Shown here piece after piece: positions 2,039 through 52,788 of a stretch of 52,788 bases of DNA; positions within the stretch are counted from its first letter, which is position 1, and each line of letters begins with the position of its first letter. The notes beneath the pieces are model-generated. The model was not told the origin of the DNA, did not search any database, and saw nothing but the letters and a program-made list of their open reading frames with translations. The DNA is taken from positions 1 to 52,788 of the IMG/VR virus record IMGVR_UViG_3300030061_000976; one strand, written 5' to 3'. The translations under genes and the position numbers were made by a program. The stretch is from a virus (taxonomy: Duplodnaviria; Caudoviricetes).

Positions 2039-2041
2039 ATT

Positions 2042-2920: not shown

Positions 2921-2952
2921 TATGATAAGAATTTCATCGAGGAGATTTTAAG

Positions 2953-3393
2953 ATGATGGGTAATATGATGGGCTTTCGTCCCCTTGGGTATGCCGACGGC
3001 GACCTTGTAATGGACGAGCAGGATCGGGTTGTTCTTATTGAGTATCTCATGGACATGACCGGCATGGGTGCGGGTACTTTCGTTGGTTTGTCCAACGCGC
3101 AACTTGAAAATGCTCGCAGGAAGGTTGACGCGGACGCCCTTGCAGCGCAGACGCAGCAAATGCAGCAGATGGCTCCCGTGCAAGGCCCTGCGGGTCTAAT
3201 GGCACCAATGCAGCAGGAGGCACCGTCTGTTGGAGCCGGTGTTGGATTTCTAAACAATCTTAGGGATTTGGACCAAGCAATGCAGCAGCCAAACATTCAG
3301 GGTTTTGTTCCTTCAATGCCGCAGGATAACATTGGCACGGGCATTCCCATGCAGATGGCAAGAGGCGGCATCATGTCCTTGGGGCGTAGATAA
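2953..3393 (+). CDS. Hypothetical Met/Gln-rich protein
   Basis: GAGGAG RBS upstream; 146 aa; ends MARGGIMSLGRR. Confidence 0.65.
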   Translation: MMGNMMGFRPLGYADGDLVMDEQDRVVLIEYLMDMTGMGAGTFVGLSNAQLENARRKVDADALAAQTQQMQQMAPVQGPAGLMAPMQQEAPSVGAGVGFLNNLRDLDQAMQQPNIQGFVPSMPQDNIGTGIPMQMARGGIMSLGRR

Positions 3394-3395
3394 CG

Positions 3396-5822
3396 ATGGC
3401 GAGGAACCCACTGCCCCGCAGTAACTTTGGAACGGCCTCCCTTGTAGAGCGCCGCGACGAAATACCCTCTGTCGATCTGGATGTTGAAGAATCTGCGGAA
3501 GTTGACGTAGCAGATTCTACCGTCATTGAGGCTCCCGGCCTTAATATCGAACTGGAGGACGACGGCGGCGTTGTAGTGGATTTCGATCCGCGCATGGAAG
3601 CGCCGGATACGGGCGACTTTTACGACAATCTAGCCGAGACCATCGAAGACCGGGTTTCGTCCATGGTTTCTTCGGAGCTTATGGAGCAGTATGAAGCCAA
3701 CAAGGACGGTCGCAAGGATTGGGAAGACGCCTATCGTACCGGACTAGAGCTTCTTGGTTTCAAATATGAAGAGCGTTCGGAGCCCTTTCGAGGCGCAACC
3801 GGCGTAACGCATCCGCTTCTTGCGGAAGCTGTGACCCAGTTTCAGGCGCAGGCTTTCGGAGAGCTTCTTCCCGCTGGTGGCCCGGTTCGCACAGAGGTTT
3901 TGGGTGAGGTTACACCGGAGGCAGACAGTCAAGCAGATCGCGTTCGCCACTTTATGAATTATCAGATTACGTGCGTGATGAAAGAGTACACGCCGGAATT
4001 TGACCAGATGCTGTTCTACTTACCGTTGTCGGGTTCTACCTTCAAAAAGGTCTACTACGACGAGTTTCTGGAACGCGCAGTCAGCAAGTTTGTGCCTGCG
4101 GAACAGTTGATTGTTCCGTACACCGCGACAGATCTGGAAACCTCCGAGAACGTTACGCACGTTATCCAGATTAGCGAGAACGAACTTCGTAAGAAACAGG
4201 TAGCTGGCTTCTATCGCGATATAGAAGTGTCTGCGTCCCAGTCGGATCCGTCCGATGTCCAAGAAGAGATGGACGATATATCCGGCATTACACCCAATCA
4301 CCTGGACCAAGAAGTCACGCTTCTGGAATGCCACGTTGACCTAGATCTGGAGGGCTACGAAGACATAGGCGATGACGGAGAGCCCACCGGCATAAAGCTT
4401 CCCTATGTTGTTACGGTATCCGAGAACAACGGAAAAATTCTAAGCATCCGTAGAAACTACAGACCGGACGATCCTGCGCGTAAGAAGAACCAGTACTTCG
4501 TGCATTTCAAGTTCCTGCCCGGATTTGGGTTCTACGGCCTTGGTCTGATACACATGATTGGTGGTCTAAGCCGTACAGCAACGGCTGCACTTCGACAGCT
4601 TATTGACGCCGGTACGCTTTCCAACCTTCCTGCGGGTTTCAAAACTCGCGGTTTACGCATACGCAATGACGATGAACCACTGTCTCCGGGCGAGTTCCGG
4701 GATGTGGATTCTCCCGGTGGTGCTATCCGCGAATCCTTGATGCTCCTGCCCTACAAGGGTGCGGATCAAACCCTGTTCCAGTTGATGGGCTTCTGTGTCG
4801 AGGCCGGTCAGCGTTTTGCAGCCGTTTCTAATCTACAAGTAGGAGACGGCAACCAACAGGCTGCGGTTGGAACAACCATAGCTATGCTGGAGCAGGGCGC
4901 AAAAGTAATGTCCGCTATACACAAGCGGCTTCACTATGCTCAAAAAGAAGAGTTTGAGCTTCTGGCTAGCGTTTTTGGAGAGTACCTGCCGCCAGAATAT
5001 CCATACAACGTTGTTGGTGCGGAACGCACTATAAAAGCGGAGGATTTCGATGATAGGGTTGATGTGGTCCCGGTGTCAGACCCAAATATCTTCTCAATGG
5101 CACAAAGAGTTACACTTGCACAAACAGAGCTACAGTTGGCTCAATCTGCGCCGGAGCTTCACAACTTGTATGAAGCGTATCGCAGGATGTATAGGGCGGT
5201 TGGTGTCAAAGACGTAGACGCTATACTCAAACCTGTAGAACAGGGGGAGCCCTCTCCTAAAGACCCGGCGCTGGAAAACTCGGAATCTTTGGAGAACATG
5301 CCACTAACCGTGTTTCAGGGTCAGAACCACGACGCCCATATCATGGCGCATCTTGTGTTCGGTTCGTCTCCGATGGTTTCTCAAATGCCTGTCGTAGCCA
5401 TGGCTTTACAGAAGCATGTCATGGAGCACGTTTCGGTAAAAGCCAAAGAACAGGTTGCGTCTCAGATGCAGCAGCAGCTTCAAGGCCAGCCTCCGAACGA
5501 GCAACAGGCCATGGAAATTGAAGGTATGGTAGCCGAACTGGTCGCTCAAGGTATGCAAGAAGTTAAATCGTTAAGCGCACAGATTAGCGGTGGCGGGGAA
5601 CCAGATCCTCTTATTGCATTGAAGCAGCAGGATCTAGAACTTCGGGCGCAACGAGATGCCGCCGAAAACCAGATAGACCAAGCTCGTCTGTCTCTTGACC
5701 AGCAGAAAGCTCAGAACACGGCTCAGTTGGGCGCAGAGAGAATACAGTCTCAGGAAGATATTGTGGCAGCGCGGATACAAGCTGCTCGCGAACGCGAACT
5801 TATGAAACAACAAAGCCAATAG
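3396..5822 (+). CDS. Portal protein, podovirus/P22-like type (phage A)
   Basis: 808 aa downstream of TerL; HPLLAEAVTQFQA, LPLSGSTFKKVYYD, FLPGFGFYGLGL; C-terminal Gln-rich coiled coil. Confidence 0.85.
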   Translation: MARNPLPRSNFGTASLVERRDEIPSVDLDVEESAEVDVADSTVIEAPGLNIELEDDGGVVVDFDPRMEAPDTGDFYDNLAETIEDRVSSMVSSELMEQYEANKDGRKDWEDAYRTGLELLGFKYEERSEPFRGATGVTHPLLAEAVTQFQAQAFGELLPAGGPVRTEVLGEVTPEADSQADRVRHFMNYQITCVMKEYTPEFDQMLFYLPLSGSTFKKVYYDEFLERAVSKFVPAEQLIVPYTATDLETSENVTHVIQISENELRKKQVAGFYRDIEVSASQSDPSDVQEEMDDISGITPNHLDQEVTLLECHVDLDLEGYEDIGDDGEPTGIKLPYVVTVSENNGKILSIRRNYRPDDPARKKNQYFVHFKFLPGFGFYGLGLIHMIGGLSRTATAALRQLIDAGTLSNLPAGFKTRGLRIRNDDEPLSPGEFRDVDSPGGAIRESLMLLPYKGADQTLFQLMGFCVEAGQRFAAVSNLQVGDGNQQAAVGTTIAMLEQGAKVMSAIHKRLHYAQKEEFELLASVFGEYLPPEYPYNVVGAERTIKAEDFDDRVDVVPVSDPNIFSMAQRVTLAQTELQLAQSAPELHNLYEAYRRMYRAVGVKDVDAILKPVEQGEPSPKDPALENSESLENMPLTVFQGQNHDAHIMAHLVFGSSPMVSQMPVVAMALQKHVMEHVSVKAKEQVASQMQQQLQGQPPNEQQAMEIEGMVAELVAQGMQEVKSLSAQISGGGEPDPLIALKQQDLELRAQRDAAENQIDQARLSLDQQKAQNTAQLGAERIQSQEDIVAARIQAARERELMKQQSQ

Positions 5823-5831
5823 GAGATCGCT

Positions 5832-6011
5832 ATGGCAAAGGAATCTTCAAACGCTACGAAGAAAGGCATTGTAGTTGAGGACCAGGGTTATGTTCCTTAC
5901 AACGATGCAAAGGATGAAAAAACTCCGAATGTTGCAAAAGCTTCCGTGGTTTCGGGTAAGAACCGTGGCATGGGTGAAGCTATTCGGGGCGGCACTTTCA
6001 AAATTTCTTAA
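5832..6011 (+). CDS. Small basic protein (59 aa, MAKESS...RGMGEAIRGGTFKIS)
   Basis: AGGAG RBS at 5821, ATG 5832, TAA 6009-6011; below the ORF-track cutoff. Confidence 0.65.
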   Translation: MAKESSNATKKGIVVEDQGYVPYNDAKDEKTPNVAKASVVSGKNRGMGEAIRGGTFKIS

Positions 6012-6030
6012 TTTTACAGGAGATCTACAG

Positions 6031-6192
6031 ATGAACTGGATTCTTAGTCGAATGAAAGAGCCTTCTAGCTATGCCGCTCTTGGCGGTGGAGTTGTAGGAA
6101 TTGGCGTTCTTATCAGCCAGCCTATTGTCATCATTATTGGCATTGTTGGCGGCGCTGCCGGTTTCCTACTGAAGGAAAAAGGCGTTATCTAG
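6031..6192 (+). CDS. Small membrane protein, holin-like (copy A)
   Basis: AGGAG RBS; MNWILSRMKEPSSYAAL plus two hydrophobic segments; homolog at 50609-50770 lies between endolysin and spanins. Confidence 0.65.
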   Translation: MNWILSRMKEPSSYAALGGGVVGIGVLISQPIVIIIGIVGGAAGFLLKEKGVI

Positions 6193-6194
6193 CT

Positions 6195-6728
6195 ATGCTA
6201 CGGTGGATTGGGCTGGCCGCTTTTGCGGTAGTTCTGTCCACCGGGGCAGCTTATGCGGCAGATACTGTAACGTCTGCTACGGTAAGCAGTTCAACAGTAG
6301 TTGACAAAACACCACCTACAGCATCCAGCCCTTCAATAGTCGTTAACAACAACGATATCTGTCAAGTTGGAACCAGTGGCGCTTTGCAGACTGGTCTTTT
6401 TGGTGTGTCCGGTGGCACCACCACTCGTGATCTAAACTGCGAGAGGATCAAGCTGGCACGGTCTGTGTTTGGTATGGGGCTGAAGGTTGCTGGCATTAGC
6501 ATTCTTTGTCAGGAAGTGCGTGTGTTCGACGGCCTTTGGATGGCCGGAACTCCTTGTCCGTTTATGGGCAAGATCGGGGACGCGGCGAGGCAAGAGTGGA
6601 TCAAGAACCCGGAGAAAGCGCCGGAAGGTTCTATTGTGCGGTTGCAGGTAAAAGCGGAAACTGTATCTTTGCAGCCTCAACAGAGTTCTGATTGGCCTGA
6701 CGAAGAAGAATGGTACGGAGGCGATTGA
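6195..6728 (+). CDS. Secreted Cys-containing conserved phage protein (module gene 1, copy A)
   Basis: Signal peptide ending AYA-A; PPTASSPS, DICQ, NCERIKL, ILCQ, GTPCP; near-identical mature region at 51741-52301. Confidence 0.8.
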   Translation: MLRWIGLAAFAVVLSTGAAYAADTVTSATVSSSTVVDKTPPTASSPSIVVNNNDICQVGTSGALQTGLFGVSGGTTTRDLNCERIKLARSVFGMGLKVAGISILCQEVRVFDGLWMAGTPCPFMGKIGDAARQEWIKNPEKAPEGSIVRLQVKAETVSLQPQQSSDWPDEEEWYGGD

Positions 6729-7215
6729 TGCGTTGGCTGATCGCATTCCTGCTTATGTCGTCTTCTGCATTAGCGGAGACAGTAACGACGACTAATGTCC
6801 TTCCAGATCTGTCTGCGTTTACGACAAGTGGATCCACGACATCTGCTGGTTCCGCAAGAGGTTGCAGTGCCGGAGAGTTTTGTACGGGTAACGCTACGGC
6901 GGGCGGCGGAACTTATACGAGCACTTTTGATGTTCCGTTAACCGAGGACGAGGTTCGCAGAGGCTTTACCCTCAACAGCGCGGTTACCGTGGACAGTCAT
7001 CCGAGTAACGCTACGCTCTCTACATGCACGAGCGTTACGCAGGTGGGGGACTGTCGCGATCTTTTTACGTTAGGGATCACACTTTTAGACGGGGGAACCG
7101 TAGCGAAAGAGTTTACTCACGAGGTAGAATTAGACTTTACTGGGGAGAGGTTGTTTTCGTTCTCGGACACGATGGTGGAGAACGACTTTGGAATTTTGAC
7201 GGGAACCTTTTCTCT
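6258..7215 (+). repeat. Diverged direct repeat, copy 1 (pairs with 51831-52788)
   Basis: Same offset (45,573) at both ends; mostly synonymous differences; last 77 nt identical. Confidence 0.95.
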
Positions 7216-8080
7216 ATTTGGAATCGACGCAGGATTTCATTCCGGGTTCTTTGGACCAAAGTTTTCTGATCCCAGCCTGACGTTTACGCATGAACGGGTT
7301 GTAGAGCAGCAGATTCTGGATCAGATCGTGCAGAACGACGTTATAGCGGCTGCGCCGCCGGTTCAGATTAACCTTCCCCCTCCTCCAGTTGACTTGCCGC
7401 CACCGCCAGCAGCGGCCCCCATCGTTGTTGCGGTTGCCCCACAGGCTCCGTCCGAGCCGCCACCGCCGCCGGAAATTGTGCCTATTCAAATTGATTTGCC
7501 TCCGCCTCCAATGGAACAGCGACAACAGGAGTCACAAGCTGAGGCAACCATTGAGGCTCAAATAGAACAGGATATAGCGCCTCCCCCTGTAGAACAGCCT
7601 CGCGCCCGAGAGCCGGAACCTGAGCCGGAACCGGAACCTGAACAACCGCAGCAGTCTTCTGAACGGGAGCCTGAACCAGAAGGACAGCCGGCAGAAGCGC
7701 GGCCAGAGCCTCAACCCTCTGAACCAGAACCGGAGCCGGAGCCTTCCGTGGAACCGCCGGCGGAGACTAGAGAGGCGCAAGCCCCTCCAAAGCCCAAGAG
7801 CCGACAGGAAAAGGTTAAAGCGGCGGCTGAAAAGGCGGTTGCAAAGATAGCTCCGTCCCAGAGATACTCAGCAGCGTCACAAACCACCACTATGGTGGCT
7901 ATGGGTATGATCTCGCCTAAAATTGTAGCCCCTGCGGCCTTAACGGATACACCCGGCTTCTTTACAGGTACAAAAGTTCCTGATGGGCCTTCTATGGTTG
8001 ATCGGATGCAGAACTATACGTTGTTCGGTACATCAAACGGGGCGCACAATGCCCTTGTAGAGCTAGATTGGAAACGTTGA
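6728..8080 (+). CDS. Secreted protein with long Pro/Glu-rich linker (module gene 2)
   Basis: TGATG coupling at 6726-6730; signal peptide MRWLIAFLLMSSSALA; Cys-containing N-domain; PPPP and EPEPEP tracts. Confidence 0.8.
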   Translation: MRWLIAFLLMSSSALAETVTTTNVLPDLSAFTTSGSTTSAGSARGCSAGEFCTGNATAGGGTYTSTFDVPLTEDEVRRGFTLNSAVTVDSHPSNATLSTCTSVTQVGDCRDLFTLGITLLDGGTVAKEFTHEVELDFTGERLFSFSDTMVENDFGILTGTFSLFGIDAGFHSGFFGPKFSDPSLTFTHERVVEQQILDQIVQNDVIAAAPPVQINLPPPPVDLPPPPAAAPIVVAVAPQAPSEPPPPPEIVPIQIDLPPPPMEQRQQESQAEATIEAQIEQDIAPPPVEQPRAREPEPEPEPEPEQPQQSSEREPEPEGQPAEARPEPQPSEPEPEPEPSVEPPAETREAQAPPKPKSRQEKVKAAAEKAVAKIAPSQRYSAASQTTTMVAMGMISPKIVAPAALTDTPGFFTGTKVPDGPSMVDRMQNYTLFGTSNGAHNALVELDWKR

Positions 8081-8081
8081 T

Positions 8082-8618
8082 ATGGCTGAAGTAGAATTTG
8101 CGGGGGTCAAGTTTAAGGGCGGCAAGATGGTTGCTGTGGTCATAGGGCTATCTACACTAGTTGGCGGTCTTTACGGAGCCTTTGAGGTCTACAAGGACTA
8201 TGAACAGATGAAAGCAAAGATAGCGAGTTACACAGCGCCAGACCTAAGTGGGATCAGGCAGGAGCAAGCTGTTCAGAATGAGACCGTAAATGCCGTTATG
8301 AAAGAAATGGAGTCTGTCCGTCTGCGGGTCAGCGAGATACAACAGATTGCGCGAGATTTACGAGAGGATCAGCGCAGTGATAGTGGAAAGCTATATAAGT
8401 CAATTGGAGCAGTGGATCGAAGGTCAAGAGAGGCTGATTCTGATACTCGCGCCGCAATGCGCCAAGCAGAAGTAACTCTGCGAGATATCACCTCTAATGC
8501 GAGTTCGCGTTTTGATAGCAAAATCAATTCAGTAGATGAAAAACTTGATGCTCTGGAATCCAGACTCAACAAGACTTTGCAACGTGCGCTTGATAACCCA
8601 CTATTGAAAGGAAAGTAA
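8082..8618 (+). CDS. Membrane-anchored coiled-coil protein (module gene 3)
   Basis: MAEVEFAGVKFKGGK, one TM segment, long heptad region, ends ALDNPLLKGK. Confidence 0.75.
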   Translation: MAEVEFAGVKFKGGKMVAVVIGLSTLVGGLYGAFEVYKDYEQMKAKIASYTAPDLSGIRQEQAVQNETVNAVMKEMESVRLRVSEIQQIARDLREDQRSDSGKLYKSIGAVDRRSREADSDTRAAMRQAEVTLRDITSNASSRFDSKINSVDEKLDALESRLNKTLQRALDNPLLKGK

Positions 8619-8619
8619 T

Positions 8620-8919
8620 ATGGCAAAGAAATTAGAAGAGAAATCAACCTTCAACGATCTAGATGTCGATGGGGACGGAGTAGTAAGCGATAGAGAGCTT
8701 GCAATCGTTGAAGCTCACGACAATCACCGGAAGTACAAGGTTCAAGAAAGAATTGTAATATCAACAGCGATATCTATGTTTGCGTTTACGCTTGCTATGT
8801 TCTTTATGGATAACTCTAAGATAAGCGCGATGTCAGGCTTGAGTAATTTATTCTACGTCTCGGGCGGGGGTATTATCGCTGCCTTCTTTGGTTTCCAAGC
8901 CATCAAACCTAAAAAGTAG
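8620..8919 (+). CDS. Small EF-hand-loop protein with two TM helices
   Basis: DVDGDGVVSDRE (Dx[DN]xDG Ca-binding loop) followed by two hydrophobic segments. Confidence 0.65.
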   Translation: MAKKLEEKSTFNDLDVDGDGVVSDRELAIVEAHDNHRKYKVQERIVISTAISMFAFTLAMFFMDNSKISAMSGLSNLFYVSGGGIIAAFFGFQAIKPKK

Positions 8920-9078
8920 TGTCTGTCGGGCCAGCATGCAGTAATATGCCGCCGCTGGCCCTTCAGATATCTCAGCTACAGCTATTAATTCTTCTAAGCC
9001 CTTTTCCAATTGATCAACGCGCTGTTGTAGCTGTCGTATCTGTTCCATTCTGCGGTACGCCATAGAGTCAATCATCAT
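8848..9078 (-). CDS. Hypothetical coiled-coil protein
   Basis: ATG overlaps the oxygenase stop (ATGA); convergent overlap with 8620-8919. Confidence 0.45.
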   Translation of the reverse strand: MMIDSMAYRRMEQIRQLQQRVDQLEKGLEELIAVAEISEGPAAAYYCMLARQTLLFRFDGLETKEGSDNTPARDVE

Positions 9079-9659
9079 CGGAAACAGGGTCCAGACACCC
9101 AAGCAACTAAAGACCACCGCTCACCTTTGGTAATCGGCGTTATCCGGTGTGGTAGGAATGATGAGAAAGCAATCACATCACCTTTTTGAAAAGATATAGA
9201 TGAAACACCCTCTGAGAACATTTCAAAATCCCCGCCTTCATATTTATCATTTAGATTGATAATTATAGATATTTTTCGAAGTGATTCAGTGCCATTGGCT
9301 ATGTCAACGTGCCAATCATATCCATGAGACGGCGAGGTGTATTTAAGCAAAGCGCAGCTTTCAATCATTCCTGTTAGATTGTAGTTGAAGGTCTCATTGG
9401 CCTCAGCGACAATCTTACTAATGATTTCATTTGATAAAGCAACCGAGGGATGGTTAGTTCCTATAGGGTAGGCCATCACGTCTCTAATAGTTGAAACGAC
9501 TTCATATGCTCCGTTTTGATTGCCGACCTTAGCAGAAATGGGCTTTATGTTTTTTCGCAGATTGTAGAGGGAGTCGCAGATTTCATTTGAGATGCTATCA
9601 AGCTGCAAAACTCCATGAACAGTAGTATCTGTATTCGGTGGGCAGAAAAAAGACATCAA
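9075..9659 (-). CDS. 2OG-Fe(II) oxygenase (prolyl 4-hydroxylase-like)
   Basis: YDWHVD (HxD), YEGGDF, LPHRITPITKGERWSLV (distal H, RxS). Confidence 0.9.
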   Translation of the reverse strand: MMSFFCPPNTDTTVHGVLQLDSISNEICDSLYNLRKNIKPISAKVGNQNGAYEVVSTIRDVMAYPIGTNHPSVALSNEIISKIVAEANETFNYNLTGMIESCALLKYTSPSHGYDWHVDIANGTESLRKISIIINLNDKYEGGDFEMFSEGVSSISFQKGDVIAFSSFLPHRITPITKGERWSLVAWVSGPCFR

Positions 9660-9684
9660 GGCTATCCCTCGTTACCTTGATGTC
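9646..9684 (-). terminator. Intrinsic terminator-like hairpin overlapping the oxygenase start
   Basis: GACATCAAGG-N13-CCTTGATGTC perfect 10-bp stem followed by T6 on the minus strand. Confidence 0.65.
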
Positions 9685-9760
9685 ATCTGTAGCACACAGG
9701 AGCGCCGCAGATGGAAATCCACGGCTAGAGCGCGATTGGAGTCGTTATGAGGGCCGCGCT
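9646..9760 (-). ncRNA. Candidate structured sRNA with anti-RBS seed CUCCUGUGUGCUAC
   Basis: Three hairpins; seed complementary to the phage's repeated CACACAGGAG leaders; ends in a terminator. Confidence 0.4.
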
Positions 9761-9906
9761 TCATCGGTTGTTTCCTTAGACCACTCTTTGATTCTTTCAA
9801 TAGAGACGTTGTGATCAAGACATAGTTGAGTTAGAAATGATATAGCTTTTTCGTCATTTCGTTTGCAAGCATCAATTAACATATCTTTTATGAGACTTTT
9901 TTGCAT
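9745..9906 (-). CDS. Hypothetical protein (53 aa, MQKSLIKDMLIDACK...)
   Basis: Translated by hand; fills the gap in the minus-strand operon. Confidence 0.5.
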   Translation of the reverse strand: MQKSLIKDMLIDACKRNDEKAISFLTQLCLDHNVSIERIKEWSKETTDEARPS

Positions 9907-10211
9907 TCCAGAATTTCTTTCATTCGTGCGTAGATGTCTTTGGCCTCTCGAACGTCTTCTAGGGCTTTGTTAGCAATCTCTTGTATAGCCGAGCGGTAAT
10001 CGTCCACCGTTTGTATGCGCCTAAAAGCGTCCTGTGCCATAAGCGCAGATGTAGAGTCGTTAATGTCATCCTCATCAATAGTACAGAAATTTATAGAATC
10101 GGCTATCTCTATAGCTAAATTGGGCCATCGTGATACTAGATGCGTTGCGAACTCATGTCGCTCATTGTGGCTCATTCTGGCTATATGCTCAACTAAGTCC
10201 TCTTTGCTCAT
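9888..10211 (-). CDS. Hypothetical protein
   Basis: Likely start MSKEDLVEH within track ORF 9888-10355. Confidence 0.55.
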   Translation of the reverse strand: MSKEDLVEHIARMSHNERHEFATHLVSRWPNLAIEIADSINFCTIDEDDINDSTSALMAQDAFRRIQTVDDYRSAIQEIANKALEDVREAKDIYARMKEILECKKVS

Positions 10212-10222
10212 ACCGCCCCCCA

Positions 10223-10339
10223 TCATACTGGAGCCGGGGCGGTCATAGCTGCCATAAACAGCCATGCAATGTAGATAGTACCAAACAGTCCGATCAGGGC
10301 CGCTAGTTCTAGGGTAAAGGTAAGTGCTTTTTTCATCAT
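10223..10339 (-). CDS. Small single-TM peptide (38 aa, MMKKALTFTLELAALIGLFGTIYIAWLFM...)
   Basis: GCACACAGGAG RBS directly upstream; hydrophobic helix. Confidence 0.6.
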   Translation of the reverse strand: MMKKALTFTLELAALIGLFGTIYIAWLFMAAMTAPAPV

Positions 10340-10461
10340 GTTCTCCTGTGTGCAAATCTTGGTGCGAGGGCTTCTAGTGAGGGCGCCTCGCAAACCCGCT
10401 AACGTCTTAGTTTAGAGCCGTTTGTTAGCCTAACCACGTTTATACTCGTTCGGCTTGAAAA

Positions 10462-10668
10462 TTAAGTTTCAGCGCAATCCTTCTCTTCCCACAGTGCGCC
10501 ATCAGATCGTAATTCTACCCACAAATCTCTGGCTTCCTGTTTAGTAAATCTGCCCTGTAAGCCAAGTTCTCCAGTTCGGGCTGTTGACCAAACCTCAACG
10601 CCATCACTATCAGGCTTGAACATCCAAAGGTTATCAGTTGTTTCAAGGGTGTGCGTTGTTCTTGCCAT
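10462..10668 (-). CDS. Hypothetical early protein
   Basis: Near-consensus promoter and CACACAGGAG RBS upstream. Confidence 0.7.
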   Translation of the reverse strand: MARTTHTLETTDNLWMFKPDSDGVEVWSTARTGELGLQGRFTKQEARDLWVELRSDGALWEEKDCAET

Positions 10669-10702
10669 CTTATTTCTCCTGTGTGTTCGTTGCTACACAA
10701 GG

Positions 10703-10731
10703 AATATAGGAGATGCCGGACACTGTGTCAA
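10703..10731 (-). promoter_or_regulatory. Sigma70-type promoter with GACA-N3-TGTC box
   Basis: TTGACA-cagtgtccggcatctcc(17)-TATATT. Confidence 0.8.
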
Positions 10732-10734
10732 TGA

Positions 10735-10989
10735 TTATTTCCCTATAAACCAAAGATATTTTTCAACATCAGCGTGACATGATTTGCACTGCAATGTTGA
10801 CCAACCGAAGTGTCGGACTAAAGTTTTTGCTCCACATTCAGGACAAAATATCTCTTTCCCTTTTTTGCCTGCATGACACCATTTCGGCACCCTCTGGAAA
10901 AATCTGAGATCAGGGTTCCATTGCTGCATCTCTGCTATGTATTTTGATTTCTTTCTCGCGCCAAGACGGCTTAACAACCACTCAAGCAT
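10735..10989 (-). CDS. Zn-ribbon protein
   Basis: CPEC...CKSC. Confidence 0.6.
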   Translation of the reverse strand: MLEWLLSRLGARKKSKYIAEMQQWNPDLRFFQRVPKWCHAGKKGKEIFCPECGAKTLVRHFGWSTLQCKSCHADVEKYLWFIGK

Positions 10990-11212
10990 TATCTTCAGCC
11001 CATTCTTTTGAGAGGATGCGTTTGCGGTCATCCCAGATTTGTTTGATGCCTCTAATGAAAATCTCGCTTTTGGTTTTGTTGGCTATGCGCCGTTCAAAGT
11101 ATGGGACAAACAGAACTGGAACGTACATTCCTGCACCATCTTGAGCATAGAACTCGCGTCCCCAGACAGGTTTCTTTCCGTAACTCTCAGATGCTTTTGT
11201 AATGTCATACAT
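10982..11212 (-). CDS. Hypothetical protein
   Basis: GGAGG RBS before MYDITK. Confidence 0.5.
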   Translation of the reverse strand: MYDITKASESYGKKPVWGREFYAQDGAGMYVPVLFVPYFERRIANKTKSEIFIRGIKQIWDDRKRILSKEWAEDNA

Positions 11213-11262
11213 AATTTCCTCCAAAATGACGACGATCCTCATTGACGGTCCCAAGCCAATGC

Positions 11263-11715
11263 TCACTCTTCAAATGAACCGAATCCGTAAGGGTGAAATA
11301 AATCAGGTGTTTTTAACACCCACAAATGATCTTCTTCGCCCCACGGGATAGCTCTGTTTTCATGTGGGTATAGCTCAACTGCTTCATGATCATTGCCGAC
11401 CACTACGTTTTTGATATCTTGCTTATCAACCCATGATATCGGCATTCCATCAAATCGACTTATAGCCAACCATATAAGGGTATCTTTGATTAAATCTAAA
11501 AATAGTGGGTTGTGTCTGTGCGGCATGTCCTTAATAGAGTCTCGCCGGATACATTGATAGTTGGCGTCAGAATAAAAGATCGCATTGCAGCGACTCTTCC
11601 ATTCCGCTTTCATCATATCGTTTGATATCTCAGGCGCTTTCATCATAACCAAGCGAACTTCTAGATCAGCCTTGAAAATATCAAAGTTTGGCGTTGGATT
11701 AGGTATTTTTTTCAT
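11263..11715 (-). CDS. Conserved phage protein (DUF7694-like)
   Basis: W.DKQDIKN..VG...EAVELYP...R......HLWVL. Confidence 0.6.
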   Translation of the reverse strand: MKKIPNPTPNFDIFKADLEVRLVMMKAPEISNDMMKAEWKSRCNAIFYSDANYQCIRRDSIKDMPHRHNPLFLDLIKDTLIWLAISRFDGMPISWVDKQDIKNVVVGNDHEAVELYPHENRAIPWGEEDHLWVLKTPDLFHPYGFGSFEE

Positions 11716-11930
11716 ATTGGGATGATGTCCAAGGCTTCAGGATAGTCTGCCCAAGCATCCACCTTTGAGTCATAAAGTTCATAATACTCTGAATGCCCAG
11801 AACCCTCACATTCATCGCAAGTTTTGTCTCTACTAGCGGGATCATTTGGGTGGCGGTCACTGACAACGCCTTGGGTGTCGCAAGCATCGCATGGTGCGAT
11901 AATTTTAAAATTGTGTATTGAATCTAACAT
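11712..11930 (-). CDS. Zn-finger protein (DnaJ-like CxxCxGxG)
   Basis: CDACDTQG and CDECEGSG; ACAGGAG RBS. Confidence 0.65.
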   Translation of the reverse strand: MLDSIHNFKIIAPCDACDTQGVVSDRHPNDPASRDKTCDECEGSGHSEYYELYDSKVDAWADYPEALDIIPI

Positions 11931-11956
11931 TAGCTTTCTCCTGTTGTGCAAAAGTT

Positions 11957-11998
11957 ATTATACACACAAATTTGATTGAATCAACCCTTATTTGGGGT
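11957..11998 (-). promoter_or_regulatory. Promoter TTGATT-16-TATAAT with upstream ACCCCAAATAAGGGT box
   Basis: Perfect -10 preceded by TGTG; leads to GCACAACAGGAG RBS. Confidence 0.6.
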
Positions 11999-21171: not shown

Positions 21172-21218
21172 GCTGAATTATAAGCACAATTATTTTTTAA
21201 AAAAAAGCAATATAATAG

Positions 21219-32226: not shown

Positions 32227-32247
32227 CTATTTATTATGATTTTAGGC

Positions 32248-50035: not shown

Positions 50036-50506
50036 ATGACTACAAAATTAACAGATCACTTTACACTTCAAGAGATGTGCAGGAGCGATACCGCTACGCG
50101 CCTTGGAATTGATAACATACCTACAGACGATGTAATCATTGCGAATCTGCGGGCGGTGTGTGTCCATGTTCTTGAGCCGGTTCGCACTCATTTTGATACG
50201 CCATTTTCACCTAACAGTGGATACAGGTGTTCTGCTTTAAACAAAGCAATTGGGTCTTCATCAAAGAGCCAGCACACAAAGGGGCAAGCGGCGGATATTG
50301 AAGTACCGGGTGTAGATAATTCTGTTCTTGCTGAATGGATCAAGGAAAATTGCACTTTTGATCAACTAATCTTGGAGTTCTATAAATCAGGTGAACCGGC
50401 ATCGGGGTGGGTACACGCATCATTTATTTTGCCGGATTACGGTGTAAATCGCGCTCAGTGCATAACCTTTGATGGTAATGCGTATATGCAGGGTTTACAG
50501 CCCTAA
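50036..50506 (+). CDS. Peptidase M15A endolysin
   Basis: HFTL.E, SGYRC..LN.AIG, SQH..G.AAD, FDQLILE, WVH. Confidence 0.9.
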   Translation: MTTKLTDHFTLQEMCRSDTATRLGIDNIPTDDVIIANLRAVCVHVLEPVRTHFDTPFSPNSGYRCSALNKAIGSSSKSQHTKGQAADIEVPGVDNSVLAEWIKENCTFDQLILEFYKSGEPASGWVHASFILPDYGVNRAQCITFDGNAYMQGLQP

Positions 50507-50608: not shown

Positions 50609-50770
50609 ATGAAATATATTAAAGATCGAATGACTGAGCCATCCAGCTATGCAGCGGCGGGTGCTGCCGTGGTTGGTATCGGGGTATTGATTAATCAACC
50701 GATTGTTATCCTGATTGGTGTTGTCGGTGGTGCGCTTGGCTTTATCCTGAAAGAAAAAGGCGTCATCTAA
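50609..50770 (+). CDS. Small membrane protein, holin-like (copy B)
   Basis: GGAGG RBS; MKYIKDRMTEPSSYAAAGAAVVGIGVLINQPIVILIGVVGGALGFILKEKGVI; between endolysin and spanins. Confidence 0.7.
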   Translation: MKYIKDRMTEPSSYAAAGAAVVGIGVLINQPIVILIGVVGGALGFILKEKGVI

Positions 50771-51169
50771 GTGCTAAAAATCTATCTACTTGTTGTAGTG
50801 GTGGGTCTCGTAGGCGGTTCGGTTTATGGGGCTTACTACTACTACAAGGATAGCCAGCAGCGCATCCAGACACTAACTGAAAACACGGCTAAGTTAGAGA
50901 CTGCTAAGAAGATGCAAGATGACACGATCACCGCTATGATTGAGGATCGAGAAAAGTTTGATGAGTTAAATAAGGAATTGCAGAGCAAACTCAACGCCGC
51001 CAACGAATATAAGGATGTACTTATCGGTAAGCTACGCAAGCATGATCTTGCAAAACTTTCCATGAAGAAACCCGGCCTAGTAGAAAAGAGGATAAACAAT
51101 GGCACGAATAAATTGTTACGTTCGCTCGAAGCTATTTCCGGCGCTGTTGCTCCTGCCCCTGCTAAGTAG
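50771..51169 (+). CDS. Inner-membrane spanin (i-spanin)
   Basis: N-terminal TM plus coiled coil; KPGLVEKRIN.GT; overlaps the lipoprotein gene. Confidence 0.75.
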   Translation: MLKIYLLVVVVGLVGGSVYGAYYYYKDSQQRIQTLTENTAKLETAKKMQDDTITAMIEDREKFDELNKELQSKLNAANEYKDVLIGKLRKHDLAKLSMKKPGLVEKRINNGTNKLLRSLEAISGAVAPAPAK

Positions 51170-51494
51170 TGGTTGCACCAACTTTAAGGAAATCTTGCCG
51201 GTAGAGATTAAGACGGTAGAGGTAGAGCGTAAGATACCAACTCAAAATCGCCCTCGTCCTGTATCGTTGAATAAGTTGCATTTCTATGTAGTTACAGAAG
51301 ACACGTTCGCATCTTTCAAGCAGCGTTTTGAGAAAGAGAACGGCGATCTGTTGTTCTACGCAATAAGCGTCAGAGACTACGAAACGCTTGCTTTGAACAT
51401 GGCTGAAATAAAGCGATTTATTGAGCAGCAAAAGCAGATTATCATCTATTATGAGAACGCGGTTAAGCCCAAGCCTAAGAAGCCAAGCGAATGA
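51099..51494 (+). CDS. Outer-membrane spanin lipoprotein (o-spanin)
   Basis: Lipobox LSSGC; DYE.LALN..EI.RFI.QQ...I.YYE. Confidence 0.75.
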   Translation: MARINCYVRSKLFPALLLLPLLSSGCTNFKEILPVEIKTVEVERKIPTQNRPRPVSLNKLHFYVVTEDTFASFKQRFEKENGDLLFYAISVRDYETLALNMAEIKRFIEQQKQIIIYYENAVKPKPKKPSE

Positions 51495-51760
51495 ACTTGA
51501 AAGGAAAAGTTTACAAACTAACAAACTTACAGAGTCGTAGGTTTCTGGCTCTTAGTTTTGTTGGGTTTCATCAGCATCACCATCAAGGGGTTGCCCTGTG
51601 CGCTGACGTTGAGGAAGAATTGTTGAAAACCAAGATGATCCAAAATGCTGGTGATTACGTTGAAATCACTGAGCGGGGTCTTAAAGAGATAGCTCGTCTT
51701 GCTACGCTGGCTGGAATAGTCATGCCGTGGGAAGATAGCAATGAAAAATCAGTTCAATAA
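51491..51760 (+). CDS. Hypothetical protein
   Basis: 89 aa, coupled on both sides. Confidence 0.5.
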   Translation: MNLKGKVYKLTNLQSRRFLALSFVGFHQHHHQGVALCADVEEELLKTKMIQNAGDYVEITERGLKEIARLATLAGIVMPWEDSNEKSVQ

Positions 51761-52301
51761 TTTAGCTGTATGCCTGCTTCTAGCGTTCTGCTTGTTTCTG
51801 GCGTTTTCTTTTGTTTCTCCATCATATTCTGCTGATACAGTAACATCAGCAACGGTGTCTAGTTCAACCGTAGTTGACAAAACACCACCTACAGCATCTA
51901 GCCCTTCAATAGTCGTTAACAACAACGATATCTGTCAAGTCGGAACCAGTGGCGCTTTGCAAACTGGTCTTTTTGGTGTGTCCGGTGGCACAACCACGCG
52001 AGACTTAAACTGCGAGAGGATCAAGCTGGCACGGTCTGTGTTTGGTATGGGGCTAAAGGTTGCTGGCATTAGCATTCTTTGTCAGGAAGTGCGTGTGTTC
52101 GACGGCCTTTGGATGGCTGGAACGCCCTGCCCGTTTATGGGCAAGATTGGGGACGCGGCGAGACAGGAGTGGGTCAATAATCCTGAGAAATCGCCGGAAG
52201 GTTCTATTGTGCGGTTGCAGCTAAAAGCGGAAACGGTATCTTCGCAGCCTCAACAGAGTTCTGATTGGCCTAACGAAGAAGAATGGTACGGAGGCGACTG
52301 A
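51741..52301 (+). CDS. Secreted Cys-containing conserved phage protein (module gene 1, copy B)
   Basis: Different signal peptide; mature part differs from 6195-6728 at 6 residues. Confidence 0.8.
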   Translation: MKNQFNNLAVCLLLAFCLFLAFSFVSPSYSADTVTSATVSSSTVVDKTPPTASSPSIVVNNNDICQVGTSGALQTGLFGVSGGTTTRDLNCERIKLARSVFGMGLKVAGISILCQEVRVFDGLWMAGTPCPFMGKIGDAARQEWVNNPEKSPEGSIVRLQLKAETVSSQPQQSSDWPNEEEWYGGD

Positions 52302-52788
52302 TGCGTTGGCTGATCGCATTCCTGCTTATGTCGTCTTCTGCGTTGGCGGAAACTGTAACGACGACCGATGTTCTTCCCAATCTGTCCGCGTTTACGACAA
52401 GTGGGTCAACGACATCTGCTGGTTCTGCGAGAGGCTGTAGCTCCGGCGAGTTTTGCACGGGCAACGCTACGGCGGGTGGCGGAACTTATACAAGCACTTT
52501 TGATGTTCCATTGACCGAGGATGAGGTTCGCAGAGGCTTTACCCTCAACAGCGCGGTTACCGTGGACAGTCATCCGAGTAACGCTACGCTTGCTACATGC
52601 ACGAGCGTTACGCAAGTGGGGGACTGCCGCGATCTTTTTACGTTAGGCATCACGCTTTTGGACGGGGGAACCGTAGCGAAGGCGTTTACTCACGAGGTAG
52701 AATTAGATTTCACTGGGGAGAGGTTGTTTTCGTTCTCGGACACGATGGTGGAGAACGACTTTGGAATTTTGACGGGAACCTTTTCTCT
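51831..52788 (+). repeat. Diverged direct repeat, copy 2 (pairs with 6258-7215)
   Basis: Direct comparison with copy 1. Confidence 0.95.
52301..52788 (+). CDS. Module gene 2, 5' part (copy B; continues at 7216 on the circle)
   Basis: MRWLIAFLLMSSSALAETV... open to the window end, colinear with 6728 onward. Confidence 0.8.
   Translation, partial: MRWLIAFLLMSSSALAETVTTTDVLPNLSAFTTSGSTTSAGSARGCSSGEFCTGNATAGGGTYTSTFDVPLTEDEVRRGFTLNSAVTVDSHPSNATLATCTSVTQVGDCRDLFTLGITLLDGGTVAKAFTHEVELDFTGERLFSFSDTMVENDFGILTGTFS

What the first reader, a model, noticed from the sequence alone, without database searches (positions are those of the whole stretch)
6195..8919. Uncharacterised trans-envelope module recently shared between a podovirus-like phage and a siphovirus
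Seen: tightly coupled genes encoding (1) a secreted 4-Cys protein with a Gly-rich hairpin between two Cys, (2) a secreted protein with a roughly 150-aa Pro/Glu linker resembling the TonB periplasm-spanning tract, (3) a membrane-anchored coiled coil and (4) an EF-hand 2-TM protein. Gene 1 and the 5' part of gene 2 occur in both phage contexts with mostly synonymous changes (6 aa differences in mature gene 1). In phage B the module follows endolysin-holin-spanin. Inference: a mobile periplasm-spanning complex under purifying selection. Since spanins are already present, it probably does something else, such as superinfection exclusion, receptor/TonB jamming, lysis timing, or forming an oligomeric outer-membrane pore. 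This is a leading candidate for an undescribed system.
Basis: partly seen in the sequence, partly recalled or inferred. Interest (0 to 1): 0.8.

Follow-up and report, generated by a model that had tools for sequence, protein, structure and literature searches.

The report
Phage envelope gene trio near lysis
Three tightly linked genes for exported cell-envelope proteins recur in hundreds of ocean phage genomes, often beside the genes that burst the host cell; their job is untested but probably concerns breaking or controlling the envelope at the end of infection.

Summary
The genes are real and as described. The 6 amino-acid differences in mature g1 and the mostly synonymous changes are confirmed (dN/dS 0.08 and 0.04).

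The window is a chimeric "lariat" assembly. Its last 77 nt equal 7139-7215 exactly. Contig depths in three runs show that 1-7138 and 7342 onward belong to two genomes, with a shared piece at the summed depth. Independent contigs still show both contexts.

The conserved unit is a trio; g4 is optional.
- g1: Sec signal plus a 4-Cys domain.
- g2: Sec signal, a carbohydrate-binding-module-like head, an acidic/Pro-rich spacer and a conserved tail.
- g3: an inner-membrane coiled coil ending in ALDNPL.

All 48 g3-seeded loci with enough upstream DNA carry g1. Cultured pelagiphages carry the trio. No cellular homologues, Pfam family or paper were found.

The trio lies in the late operon. In 23-25 of 47 dereplicated loci it is within 3.5 kb of a recognised lysis gene, sometimes between a holin-like gene and Rz/Rz1. 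The g3 anchor resembles the neighbouring Rz i-spanin (hhalign 85%, controls under 1%).

Best reading (0.4): a spanin-like or spanin-accessory complex spanning the periplasm. Rivals: receptor masking or superinfection exclusion, and lysis timing.

The parts
6034..6192 (+). TM53: a 52-53 aa protein with two hydrophobic segments and a conserved (K/T)EPSSYAA motif. Holin candidate in the phage A context.
   Evidence: Sequence. A homologue sits between the endolysin and Rz in phage B. It is found immediately upstream of g1 or of Rz in 30 of 80 loci. The PHROG holin hit has E 0.37 only, so the holin role is inferred from position and topology.
6195..6728 (+). g1 (copy A): a Sec-signal protein with a Thr/Ser-rich spacer, a roughly 95-aa conserved 4-Cys domain (hairpin plus helices) and an acidic tail.
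   Evidence: phrog_20531 (unknown function), E 2.7e-8. 2036 relatives. 1823 50%-identity clusters at E<=1e-3. No fold match.
6710..8080 (+). g2: probable start at 6728. Signal peptide, beta-sandwich head (residues 22-197), Pro/Glu-rich disordered spacer (about 215-365) and a conserved C-terminal domain (about 362-456). In this contig the 5' part (up to 7138) comes from phage A and the rest from phage B or shared sequence.
   Evidence: Chimera evidence.
8082..8618 (+). g3: a bitopic inner-membrane protein. It has a conserved N-terminus MAEVEFxGxKFKGGK, a TM segment, the motifs FEVYKDY and APDLSG, a coiled coil of variable length, and a C-terminal ALDNPL motif.
   Evidence: NPL lies in the last 15 aa in 65 of 68 homologues. 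hhalign against the Rz family gives 85% probability, E 6e-6, over the TM and juxtamembrane region. Weak PHROG Rz-like hits, best E 0.0085.
8620..8919 (+). g4: an optional fourth gene with an N-terminal EF-hand-like Ca-binding loop and two TM segments. It is the last gene of phage B's late operon.
   Evidence: (phrog_27150, E 4.8e-6). Present in 29 of 80 loci. The genes after it run on the opposite strand and are early or replication genes.
50036..50506 (+). Phage B endolysin (peptidase M15).
   Evidence: PF08291 2e-21; phrog_894 3.8e-42.
50609..50770 (+). Phage B homologue of TM53 (holin candidate).
   Evidence: Sequence. Aligned with the TM53 family.
50771..51169 (+). Phage B Rz-like i-spanin.
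   Evidence: phrog_739, E 3.1e-16.
51099..51494 (+). Phage B Rz1-like o-spanin (lipobox LSSGC), overlapping the Rz gene.
   Evidence: phrog_812, E 1.3e-11. Sequence.
51741..52301 (+). g1' (copy B): a different signal peptide; the mature part differs from copy A at 6 residues.
52283..52788 (+). g2' 5' part (copy B), running off the contig end. It continues at 7216 in the phage B circle.
52712..52788 (.). Terminal 77-mer identical to 7139-7215: the assembly overlap that closes the phage B circle.
   Evidence: A unitig starting at 7139 has depth equal to the sum of the A-side and B-side depths.

Best explanation
g1-g2-g3, with g4 as an optional fourth gene, is a virus-only, co-inherited late-gene module. 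I read it as building a complex across the periplasm of the infected Gram-negative host, acting in or on the envelope-disruption phase of lysis as a spanin-like or spanin-accessory device.

Shown:
- All three proteins are exported or membrane-inserted.
- g3 is an N-in bitopic inner-membrane protein. Its anchor and juxtamembrane segment resemble those of the co-resident Rz i-spanin. It carries a coiled coil of variable length and an almost invariant C-terminal ALDNPL motif.
- g2 has a carbohydrate-binding-module-like beta-sandwich head, a long acidic/Pro-rich disordered spacer and a conserved C-terminal domain.
- g1 is a conserved 4-Cys periplasmic domain. In a third of homologues it is tethered by a C-terminal hydrophobic tail.
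- The genes are translationally coupled.
- They travel together with holin-like, spanin and endolysin genes.

Inferred:
- g3 is the inner-membrane subunit.
- The conserved C-terminal domain of g2, and/or g1, docks on g3.
- The g2 spacer crosses the periplasm and its lectin-like head engages a wall or outer-membrane glycan.
- Once endolysin has removed the wall, the complex helps destroy the outer membrane, or gates the step that does.
- In phages with no Rz/Rz1 it may be the only such device.
For: 1. Co-inheritance.
- g1 relatives occur in 272 viral-contig stretches and g3 relatives in at least 563.
- Of 80 g3-seeded loci, 48 have at least 3 kb upstream. g1 is present in 48 of 48 and the g2 C-domain in 38 of 48.
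- The trio is present in cultured pelagiphages HTVC115P, HTVC023P, HTVC202P, Baldr and Mosig.

2. Lysis context.
- Recurrent orders are TM53-g1-g2-g3-g4-Rz-Rz1(-lysozyme), g1-g2-g3-holin-lysozyme and g1-g2-g3-M15.
- The block TM53...Rz1 is found either between terminase and portal or after the portal, so it moves as one cassette.
- In 68 dereplicated loci the commonest downstream families are g4 (22 loci), lysozyme (18), Rz1 (13), Rz (12) and GTA-type holin (11).
- 25 of 47 loci with at least 3 kb downstream have a recognised lysis gene within 3.5 kb. The figure is 23 of 47 if the unannotated f40 family is left out.

3. g3 resembles Rz.
- hhalign of g3 against the Rz family gives 85% probability, E 6e-6, over 30 columns covering the TM and juxtamembrane region.
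- Controls with other TM families give 0.6% and 0.7%.
- There are four weak PHROG Rz-like hits.

4. g2 head fold.
- AF2 pLDDT is about 90.
- VIA Z is 14.1 to the Fbs1 sugar-binding domain, 11.7 to CBM16 and about 11 to phage tail-fibre tips. Foldseek E is 3e-7.

5. Selection and coupling.
- dN/dS is 0.04-0.08.
- Start and stop codons overlap or are 1 nt apart.

6. A genome without lipoprotein spanins.
- The complete 32-kb HTVC202P genome has no lipobox ORF by my regular expression. Its N-terminally anchored coiled-coil protein carrying the APDLSG motif is the g3 homologue gp26.

7. Background. About 13% of phages of Gram-negative hosts have no identifiable spanin (PMC6139136, passages read).
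Against: - Phage B and 12-13 of 59 dereplicated loci carry a regular Rz/Rz1 pair as well, so the trio cannot simply replace spanins there.
- g1 and g2 are not lipoproteins: 1 of 68 g1 homologues has a lipobox-like motif.
- No o-spanin-like ORF is embedded in or follows g3.
- In 22 of 47 loci no lysis gene was recognised nearby. Their downstream ORFs are DNA-metabolism genes.
- In HTVC202P and Baldr the trio lies just before the terminase. In HTVC202P it is about 20 kb from the M15 endolysin.
- The g3-Rz similarity covers only 30 columns that include a TM segment.
- g3 has no Pfam or PHROG hit above threshold.
- A lectin-like head fits receptor-related roles equally well.
- No expression timing, localisation or phenotype is known.
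Confidence: 0.4

Rival explanations
1. Receptor masking or superinfection exclusion. The complex displays or positions the lectin-like g2 head so that it covers or alters a surface or periplasmic glycan used by phages. This would keep out competitors and stop progeny from adsorbing to debris of the lysed cell.
For: - In siphovirus contexts the trio directly follows tail-fibre genes.
- The g2 head has the fold of carbohydrate-binding modules and of phage receptor-binding tips.
- The head is the most variable part of the module. At least four unrelated head types share one conserved C-domain.
- All the proteins locate to the envelope.
Against: - The g2-head HMM hits no tail-fibre ORF in any held locus or in the window.
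- Nearly the same g1 and g2 head occur in phages with unrelated virion modules. The head therefore tracks the host rather than the phage's own tail.
- The genes sit at the late or lysis end of the genome, whereas known exclusion genes of lytic phages are early (recalled, not tested).
- No PADLOC hit.
- No route across the outer membrane is evident.
Confidence: 0.23
2. Lysis-timing control. g3 is a single-pass protein with a large periplasmic domain, like the T4 holin T. With periplasmic g1 and g2 (compare the antiholin RI) and the Ca-binding two-TM g4, it would sense the state of the envelope or superinfection and delay or trigger the holin.
For: - The position is next to holin-like genes (TM53, GTA-type holin).
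- The cytoplasmic N-terminus of g3 is conserved.
- g4 has an EF-hand-like loop on a holin-like two-TM body.
- The T4 RI/T precedent comes from abstracts listed.
Against: - No sequence or fold similarity to T, RI or RIII was seen.
- g4 is missing from most loci.
- In HTVC202P the trio is far from the lysis genes.
Confidence: 0.12
3. g1 oligomerises through its Gly-rich hairpin into an outer-membrane beta-barrel pore, as CsgG or beta-pore-forming toxins do. g2 and g3 would be its periplasmic partners.
For: A Gly/Ser/Thr-rich hairpin of 2 x 10 residues lies between the invariant Cys56 and Cys82. As a precedent, pelagiphages carry a CsgG-based T8SS module (PMC9599517, passages read).
Against: - 23 of 68 g1 homologues end in a C-terminal hydrophobic anchor that would retain them at the inner membrane.
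- Hairpin pLDDT is only 51-74.
- No fold match to pore formers.
- No Pfam CsgG/CsgF hit.
Confidence: 0.05
4. The proteins are ordinary virion or assembly proteins whose hydrophobic N-termini only look like signal peptides.
For: They lie within or next to structural gene blocks (portal, terminase, tail fibres).
Against: - 65 of 68 g1 homologues have a signal-like N-terminus.
- g2 has an n-h-c region with an AxA site and g3 has a positive-inside TM segment.
- No PHROG structural family matches.
- The position relative to structural genes varies, whereas linkage to lysis genes recurs.
Confidence: 0.03

Closest known systems
Two-component spanins (lambda Rz/Rz1, T4 PseT.3/PseT.2)
   Same: - A late gene set within the lysis cassette.
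- An N-in bitopic inner-membrane protein with a periplasmic coiled coil (g3), whose anchor segment resembles the neighbouring Rz.
- A partner carrying conserved Cys while the inner-membrane subunit has none. This is the T4 arrangement according to PMC6139136.
- A presumed reach across the periplasm.
   Different: - Three proteins rather than two.
- No outer-membrane lipoprotein.
- The partner genes precede the inner-membrane subunit gene and are not embedded in it.
- One partner has a lectin-like head and a 150-aa disordered spacer.
- It coexists with a bona fide Rz/Rz1 pair in some phages.
TonB / TolA periplasm-spanning proteins
   Same: The g2 spacer has (Glu-Pro)n and Pro-rich tracts of about 150 aa between two folded parts. 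One deposited record annotates a g2 homologue as 'transport protein tonB'.
   Different: - g2 has a cleavable signal peptide rather than an N-terminal anchor.
- No TonB_C or TolA Pfam match at E<=1.
- No ExbB/D or TolQ/R genes.
- In other lineages the spacer is acidic and not Pro-rich.
T4 holin T with antiholin RI (lysis inhibition)
   Same: A single-pass membrane protein with a large periplasmic domain, together with small secreted periplasmic partner(s), encoded with lysis genes.
   Different: No detectable sequence or fold similarity. Recognisable holin candidates exist separately in these cassettes.
Pelagiphage type VIII (curli) secretion module (Wittmers et al. 2022, PMC9599517)
   Same: A multigene envelope module shared between pelagiphages of different morphotypes and abundant in ocean viromes (passages read).
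   Different: The genes are entirely different (CsgG, CsgF, CsgA/B, HK, FecR, AC). Those have cellular (alphaproteobacterial) homologues, whereas g1 was found only on viral or MAG/SAG contigs.
Receptor-blocking proteins next to tail-fibre genes (T5 Llp, phi80/N15 Cor). Recalled; not tested here.
   Same: Envelope proteins encoded beside receptor-binding genes.
   Different: Those are single small outer-membrane lipoproteins. Here there are three non-lipoproteins with an inner-membrane anchor.

Membership tests
Two-component spanin | i-spanin: an N-terminal TM anchor (N-in) with a periplasmic coiled-coil domain | tested here: met
   g3 has a Lys-rich N-terminus, one TM segment and then a coiled coil. 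This is met for topology only.
Two-component spanin | Sequence homology of the inner-membrane subunit to a known i-spanin family | tested here: inconclusive
   The best PHROG Rz-like hit has E 0.0085. hhalign against the neighbouring Rz family gives 85% probability over 30 columns, and controls give under 1%.
Two-component spanin | o-spanin: an outer-membrane lipoprotein with a lipobox Cys | tested here: not met
   g1 and g2 have Sec-type signals with AxA sites. A lipobox-like motif occurs in 1 of 68 g1 homologues.
Two-component spanin | o-spanin gene embedded in, overlapping or directly following the i-spanin gene | tested here: not met
   g1 and g2 precede g3. No lipoprotein ORF lies in the other frames of g3.
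Two-component spanin | C-terminal interaction of the two subunits, and membrane fusion activity | not testable with these tools
   This needs pull-down, complementation of lambda Rzam Rz1am, or a spheroplast fusion assay.
TonB | N-terminal membrane anchor, Pro-rich spacer, TonB_C domain, and ExbB/ExbD partners | tested here: not met
   Only the spacer is present. g2 has a cleavable signal, no Pfam TonB_C hit at E<=1, and no ExbB/D-like genes nearby.
Carbohydrate-binding-module-like / galactose-binding-domain-like beta-sandwich (g2 head) | Jelly-roll beta-sandwich fold | tested here: met
   AF2 pLDDT is about 90 for residues 22-197. VIA Z is 14.1 (rmsd 3.0, 147 aligned) to the Fbs1 sugar-binding domain and 11.7 to CBM16. 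Foldseek E is 3.3e-7.
Carbohydrate-binding-module-like / galactose-binding-domain-like beta-sandwich (g2 head) | Actual glycan binding, and its ligand | not testable with these tools
   This needs a glycan array or a peptidoglycan/LPS pull-down.
EF-hand (g4) | 12-residue Ca-binding loop DxDxDGxxxxxE scoring above the Pfam threshold | tested here: inconclusive
   The loop DVDGDGVVSDRE is present, and D15, D17, D19, G20 and E26 are invariant in 18 homologues. PF13202 scores 20.9 bits against a cut-off of 25.9.
Holin (TM53) | A small membrane protein in a lysis cassette that matches a holin family | tested here: inconclusive
   It has two hydrophobic segments and lies between the endolysin and Rz in phage B. 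The phrog_20 holin hit has E 0.37 only.
Curli / T8SS module of pelagiphages | CsgG, CsgF and CsgA/B domains | tested here: not met
   No Pfam hit for g1-g4 at E<=1 apart from the EF-hand and coiled-coil noise.
Known anti-phage defence or exclusion systems (PADLOC) | Match to a PADLOC model | tested here: inconclusive
   Only coiled-coil noise for g3 (E>=0.01), and nothing for g1, g2, g4 or TM53. The library dates from 2023 and covers few phage-borne exclusion genes.

The most novel reading that the evidence does not exclude
The trio is a third, lipoprotein-free class of outer-membrane disruption machinery. An i-spanin-like inner-membrane coiled coil (g3) is coupled, through the conserved tail of g2 and the Cys domain of g1, to a lectin head that grips wall or outer-membrane glycan. 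It would be the device by which many 'spanin-less' marine phages, including the most abundant pelagiphages, complete lysis.
Probability: 0.18. Interest if true: 0.85.

Novelty: new variant of a known kind. Interest (0 to 1): 0.66.

Why it matters
The g1 family alone comprises 1823 clusters at 50% identity. It occurs in cultured phages of SAR11 and Roseobacter, hosts of some of the most abundant viruses in the sea. It has no name, no Pfam family and, in my searches, no paper.

How phages without recognisable spanins breach the outer membrane is an open question; about 13% of phages of Gram-negative hosts lack them (PMC6139136). This trio is a concrete, testable candidate for that step, or for a new layer of lysis control.

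If it instead masks receptors, it would be a new kind of exclusion device carried by lytic ocean phages.

In either case the module shows that a block of envelope genes is exchanged between podo-, sipho- and myovirus backbones that share a host.

The case also shows that such shared modules cause chimeric metagenome contigs that CheckV rates as 100% complete.

Tried and rejected
- Complex prediction on the g1 core, the g3 periplasmic part and the g2 C-domain returned 'no answer' (score 0.00). This is neither support nor evidence against binding.
- The g1 model was searched with Foldseek/PDB and VIA-wide. There was no match at E<=0.001 and the best Z was 3.4. The model is only moderately confident (pLDDT 67.6), so I make no claim of a new fold.
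- Profile searches of g1, g2 and g3 against PDB sequences gave the following. g1 gave nothing. g2 gave only low-complexity noise (E>=0.34). g3 gave weak hits to apolipoproteins and influenza HA2 (E 1e-4 to 1e-2), which I take as coiled-coil composition rather than homology.
- ESM Atlas returned only unnamed viral clusters and no named cluster.
- NCBIfam and PADLOC gave nothing usable.
- The search for longer fused forms of g1 found 3 proteins of 337-341 aa, none with a Pfam domain.
- The 'OmpA family protein' label on CRP-810 gp53 (a g1 homologue) is not backed by Pfam.
- The idea that the g2 head is a decoy copy of the phage's own receptor-binding protein is rejected. The g2-head HMM hits only proteins in the g2 position.
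- The idea that g1 is an endolysin finds no support. There was no lysozyme or peptidase match by sequence or fold.
- Megablast of window 1-12000 against cultured phages found no match.
- The first g3 alignment was too divergent to seed a scan. A narrower one worked.
- Supplementary Table S3 of PMC12753301 gives the temporal classes of HTVC027P genes and could show whether the trio is late.

Full report
**1. What is in the window**

The window is a whole IMG/VR record, rated 'linear' and 100% complete by CheckV. Positions 6195-8919 hold four co-directional, translationally coupled ORFs.

- g1 (6195-6728, 177 aa) has a Sec-type signal ending AYA|AD and a Thr/Ser-rich spacer. A conserved domain of about 95 aa with four Cys follows.
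- g2 (ORF 6710-8080) most likely starts at the ATG at 6728. That ATG overlaps the g1 stop as TGATG behind a GGAGG, and most homologues begin MRW. It has a signal peptide, a folded head, a Pro/Glu-rich stretch of about 150 aa and a conserved tail of about 95 aa.
- g3 (8082-8618) is a single-pass membrane protein with a coiled coil.
- g4 (8620-8919) has a canonical DxDxDG...E loop and two hydrophobic segments. The Pfam EF-hand score is below threshold (20.9 against 25.9 bits).

A second copy of g1 and of the first 168 codons of g2 lies at 51741-52788.

- The copies are 92.2% identical over 961 nt.
- Mature g1 differs at 6 of 154 residues (dN/dS 0.078, dS 0.30).
- The g2 5' part differs at 5 of 163 residues (dN/dS 0.041).
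- The two signal peptides of g1 are unrelated, so homology starts at the junction between signal and mature protein.

**2. The contig is a chimera**

The longest suffix of the window that recurs elsewhere is exactly 77 nt. Positions 52712-52788 equal 7139-7215, with a mismatch immediately before. This is what a de Bruijn assembler with k=77 leaves when a path runs back into a node already used. That reading of k is from my own knowledge.

I laid Logan contigs of three runs from one study on 5000-9600.

- The part 5000-6096 has depth 9.5 / 13.2 / 8.3 in runs X1 / X2 / X3.
- The part from 7837 on, which belongs to a 20,104-nt contig, has depth 18.4 / 10.7 / 18.9.
- A unitig starting exactly at 7139 (7139-7371; in X3 7162-7371) has depth 31.3 / 19 / 29.5, roughly the sum of the two.
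- The A:B ratio changes between runs (0.5, 1.2, 0.4).
- The stretch 6100-7850 is broken into unitigs of 150-260 nt, which indicates many co-occurring variants.

So 1-7138 is a fragment of phage A. It carries an LPD23-domain protein and an SU10-type portal.

Positions 7139-52711 are the 45,573-bp circle of phage B. B is a siphovirus with terminase, portal, HK97-type capsid, tape measure, J-like fibre and tail fibre. It also has a leftward early region with primase-helicase, ERF and a 2OG oxygenase.

In phage B the gene order is: tail fibre, a 62-aa TM protein, M15 endolysin, TM53, Rz, Rz1, an 89-aa ORF, g1', g2', g3, g4, then the strand switch.

The window's g3 and g4 therefore belong to B. In line with this, they are only 66% and 46% identical to those of contigs L006/L007, whose portal is 100% identical to A's. 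Nucleotide identity to L007 falls from 86-97% in g2 to 53-62% from about 8170 onward.

**3. Both contexts are nevertheless real**

Ten independent loci show portal, a 59-aa ORF, (TM53), g1 and onward. Others show tail fibre, the B181-like gene, g1 and onward.

Copy A of g1 is 98-100% identical in nucleotide sequence to the g1 of L005, which lies behind tail-fibre genes.

In runs X1-X3 one contig each joins B-type upstream sequence to the A-type g1 allele at 6288 (table 7).

Exchange of the g1/g2 block between backbones is thus supported. One caution applies: this region is prone to assembly chimeras, as the window itself shows.

**4. The conserved unit is a trio**

- g1 relatives occur in 272 viral-contig stretches.
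- There are 2036 g1-like proteins in the 90% clusters, all unnamed, and 1823 clusters at 50% identity.
- In the genome collection g1 appears only on MAG/SAG contigs (30 loci).
- In the ESM Atlas the nearest clusters are 100% viral.

By tblastn with the window's proteins on 80 g1-seeded loci, many of them truncated, I found g3 in 59, g2 in 54 and g4 in 29. ORF maps show a protein of 410-810 aa and then a g3-like protein of 148-251 aa after g1 wherever the DNA extends far enough.

As an independent test I seeded on g3 (at least 563 stretches). Of 80 loci, 48 have at least 3 kb upstream. All 48 have g1 upstream on the same strand, and 38 have the g2 C-domain directly upstream.

Cultured phages carry the trio in the same order:
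- HTVC115P gp54-53-52;
- HTVC023P gp45-46-(47)-48, followed by an M15 peptidase;
- HTVC202P gp24-26;
- Baldr 001-004;
- the myovirus Mosig 00202-00200.

Roseophages CRP-810 and CRP-207 have a g1-like gene two genes upstream of their lysozyme.

**5. Anatomy**

g1:
- Eighteen columns are invariant in 47 sequences, including C56 and C82, and the DLNCERIKL motif is conserved.
- AF2 (pLDDT 67.6) gives a hairpin at 57-78 and a helical bundle at 80-137, with pLDDT about 90 for residues 100-150.
- No structural neighbour was found.
- 65 of 68 dereplicated homologues have a signal-like N-terminus and 1 of 68 has a lipobox-like motif.
- 23 of 68 end in a hydrophobic tail of 12-15 residues. That places the domain at the periplasmic face of the inner membrane rather than in the outer membrane.

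g2:
- The head (residues 22-197, pLDDT about 90) is a jelly-roll beta-sandwich.
- The best matches are the Fbs1 sugar-binding domain (Z 14.1, rmsd 3.0, 147 aligned), CBM16 (Z 11.7), CBM61, CBM4, and the tips of phage tail fibres and tailspikes (Z about 11).
- Other lineages have unrelated heads, one with Cys-rich tandem repeats, and acidic rather than Pro-rich spacers. All share the C-terminal domain.

g3:
- The N-terminus M(A)E(V/I)E..G.K..GGK is conserved, followed by a TM segment.
- The motifs FEVYKDY and APDLSG lie just outside the membrane.
- The coiled coil varies in length.
- The C-terminal ALDNPL motif is present in 65 of 68 homologues.
- g3 has no Cys.

**6. Context**

I dereplicated the two sets of fetched loci to 68. 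Of these, 59 have at least 1.5 kb downstream and 46 have at least 1.5 kb upstream. The commonest neighbouring families are as follows.

| Side | Family | Loci |
|---|---|---|
| Downstream | g4 | 22 |
| Downstream | phage lysozyme | 18 |
| Downstream | Rz1-like | 13 |
| Downstream | Rz-like | 12 |
| Downstream | GTA-type 3-TM holin | 11 |
| Upstream | TM53 | 11 |
| Upstream | B181-like gene | 9 |
| Upstream | portal | 8 |
| Upstream | tail fibre | 7 |
| Upstream | terminase | 6 |

The family labels rest.

Of 47 loci with at least 3 kb downstream, 25 have a recognised lysis gene within 3.5 kb. Without the unannotated f40 family, which I only suspect to be a holin, the figure is 23. For a 40-60 kb genome with one lysis cassette I would expect roughly one in five by chance. 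That is my estimate and was not computed.

In the remaining 22 loci, a PHROG scan of 95 downstream ORFs found DNA-metabolism families and no lysis family among the 25 listed of 47. There the trio ends the late operon, as in phage B, where the lysis genes are upstream.

The block TM53-g1-g2-g3-g4-Rz-Rz1 occurs between terminase and portal in some phages and after the portal in others. It therefore moves as one cassette.

Against a strict link to lysis: in HTVC202P and Baldr the trio lies immediately before the terminase. In HTVC202P that is about 20 kb from the M15 endolysin.

**7. A link to spanins**

g3 gives four weak PHROG hits to Rz-like families (E 0.0085-0.29).

A profile-profile comparison of the g3 family with the Rz family of the same cassettes aligns the TM and juxtamembrane segment. 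VGGLYGAFEVYKDY aligns with VGGSVYGAYYYYKDS at 85% probability and E 6e-6 over 30 columns.

The same test against two other membrane families of the cassette gives 0.6% and 0.7%. Rz against TM53 gives 5%.

This is short and includes a TM helix, so I count it as a lead rather than proof.

The complete HTVC202P genome has no ORF matching my lipoprotein-signal pattern. Its N-terminally anchored coiled-coil protein carrying the APDLSG motif is the g3 homologue gp26. This is a crude test on a single genome.

**8. Interpretation**

The evidence best fits a periplasm-spanning complex tied to the lysis programme. g3 would be the inner-membrane subunit. The conserved g2 tail and g1 would be its partners. 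The g2 spacer would cross the periplasm, and the lectin-like head would hold a wall or outer-membrane glycan.

I cannot decide whether the complex itself ruptures the outer membrane, assists or gates Rz/Rz1, or times the holin. I put 0.4 on the spanin-like or accessory reading.

The coexistence with Rz/Rz1 in phage B and in 12-13 of 59 loci is the main argument against simple substitution.

Receptor masking or exclusion (0.23) is favoured by the tail-fibre neighbourhood and by the variable, receptor-binding-like head. It is disfavoured by three points:
- the late position;
- the lack of any similarity between the head and the phages' own fibres;
- the sharing of one head by phages with unrelated tails.

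Lysis timing (0.12), an outer-membrane pore (0.05) and virion proteins (0.03) follow.

**9. Novelty**

No curated family matches: Pfam, PHROG function, NCBIfam or PADLOC.

Four full-text searches found no description:
- 'pelagiphage' with 'spanin';
- 'pelagiphages', 'lysis', 'signal peptide', 'endolysin';
- 'HTVC023P', 'HTVC115P';
- 'spanin', 'roseophage', 'lysis cassette', 'SAR11'.

The nearest published parallel is the pelagiphage curli/T8SS module exchanged between myo- and podoviruses (PMC9599517; passages read). It consists of different genes.

Kongari et al. [quoted passage not shown]

I read only passages of these papers and of PMC12753301.

Noticed in passing
window 1-7138 versus 7139-52788: The record is a lariat-type chimera: a 7.1-kb fragment of one phage joined to the complete 45,573-bp circle of another through a shared stretch in g2. 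It is nevertheless rated 100% complete. Shared modules like this one may cause many such chimeras in virome assemblies.
   Followed up: yes
window 10673-10738, 21189-21264, 32168-32256: A 53-64 nt element (core TTGACACCATGTC...TATA-like) occurs three times, at 73-77% identity. Two copies are direct and one inverted, in stretches without a long ORF in phage B. They may be phage promoters or operator sites.
   Followed up: no
window 6288 (runs X1-X3, table 7): One contig in each of three runs carries the B-type sequence upstream of g1 but continues at >=97% identity with the A-type g1 allele. This is either a natural recombinant or a further variant of the module in the same community.
   Followed up: partly
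L011:3938-4364, L012:1968-2396, L022 (between g2 and g3): In a few loci an ORF of 126-148 aa is inserted between g2 and g3. By eye it looks like a staphylococcal-nuclease-type domain (DGDT...LYGVDTPE). It was not checked with a family search.
   Followed up: no
L067:8810-10540 and relatives (L064, L066, L068, L069, L072): One lineage of g2 homologues has five to six tandem Cys-rich repeats (CPGY..AY..QQCS...LY) in place of the Pro/Glu spacer. Pfam finds no family.
   Followed up: partly
window 206-2035: The 610-aa protein upstream of phage A's portal is not a terminase. It carries an LPD23 domain (large polyvalent protein-associated domain 23; PF18838, 1.8e-17).
   Followed up: partly
window 9075-9659 (-), 21285-22280, 24361-25533: Phage B carries a 2OG-Fe(II) oxygenase, a putative amidoligase, and a PAPS-reductase/DUF3440 protein. 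These may be DNA- or protein-modification genes.
   Followed up: no
L201 (HTVC202P, complete genome): No ORF in this 32-kb pelagiphage matches a lipoprotein-signal pattern. Its M15 endolysin is followed by small Lys/Arg-rich ORFs and a 64-aa tail-anchored protein. It appears to lack classical spanins.
   Followed up: partly
L084:4818-5573 (CRP-810 gp53): The deposited annotation 'OmpA family protein' for this g1 homologue has no Pfam support. Likewise 'transport protein tonB' in MW202481 (L085:5269-6375) marks a g2-like protein with no TonB domain.
   Followed up: yes
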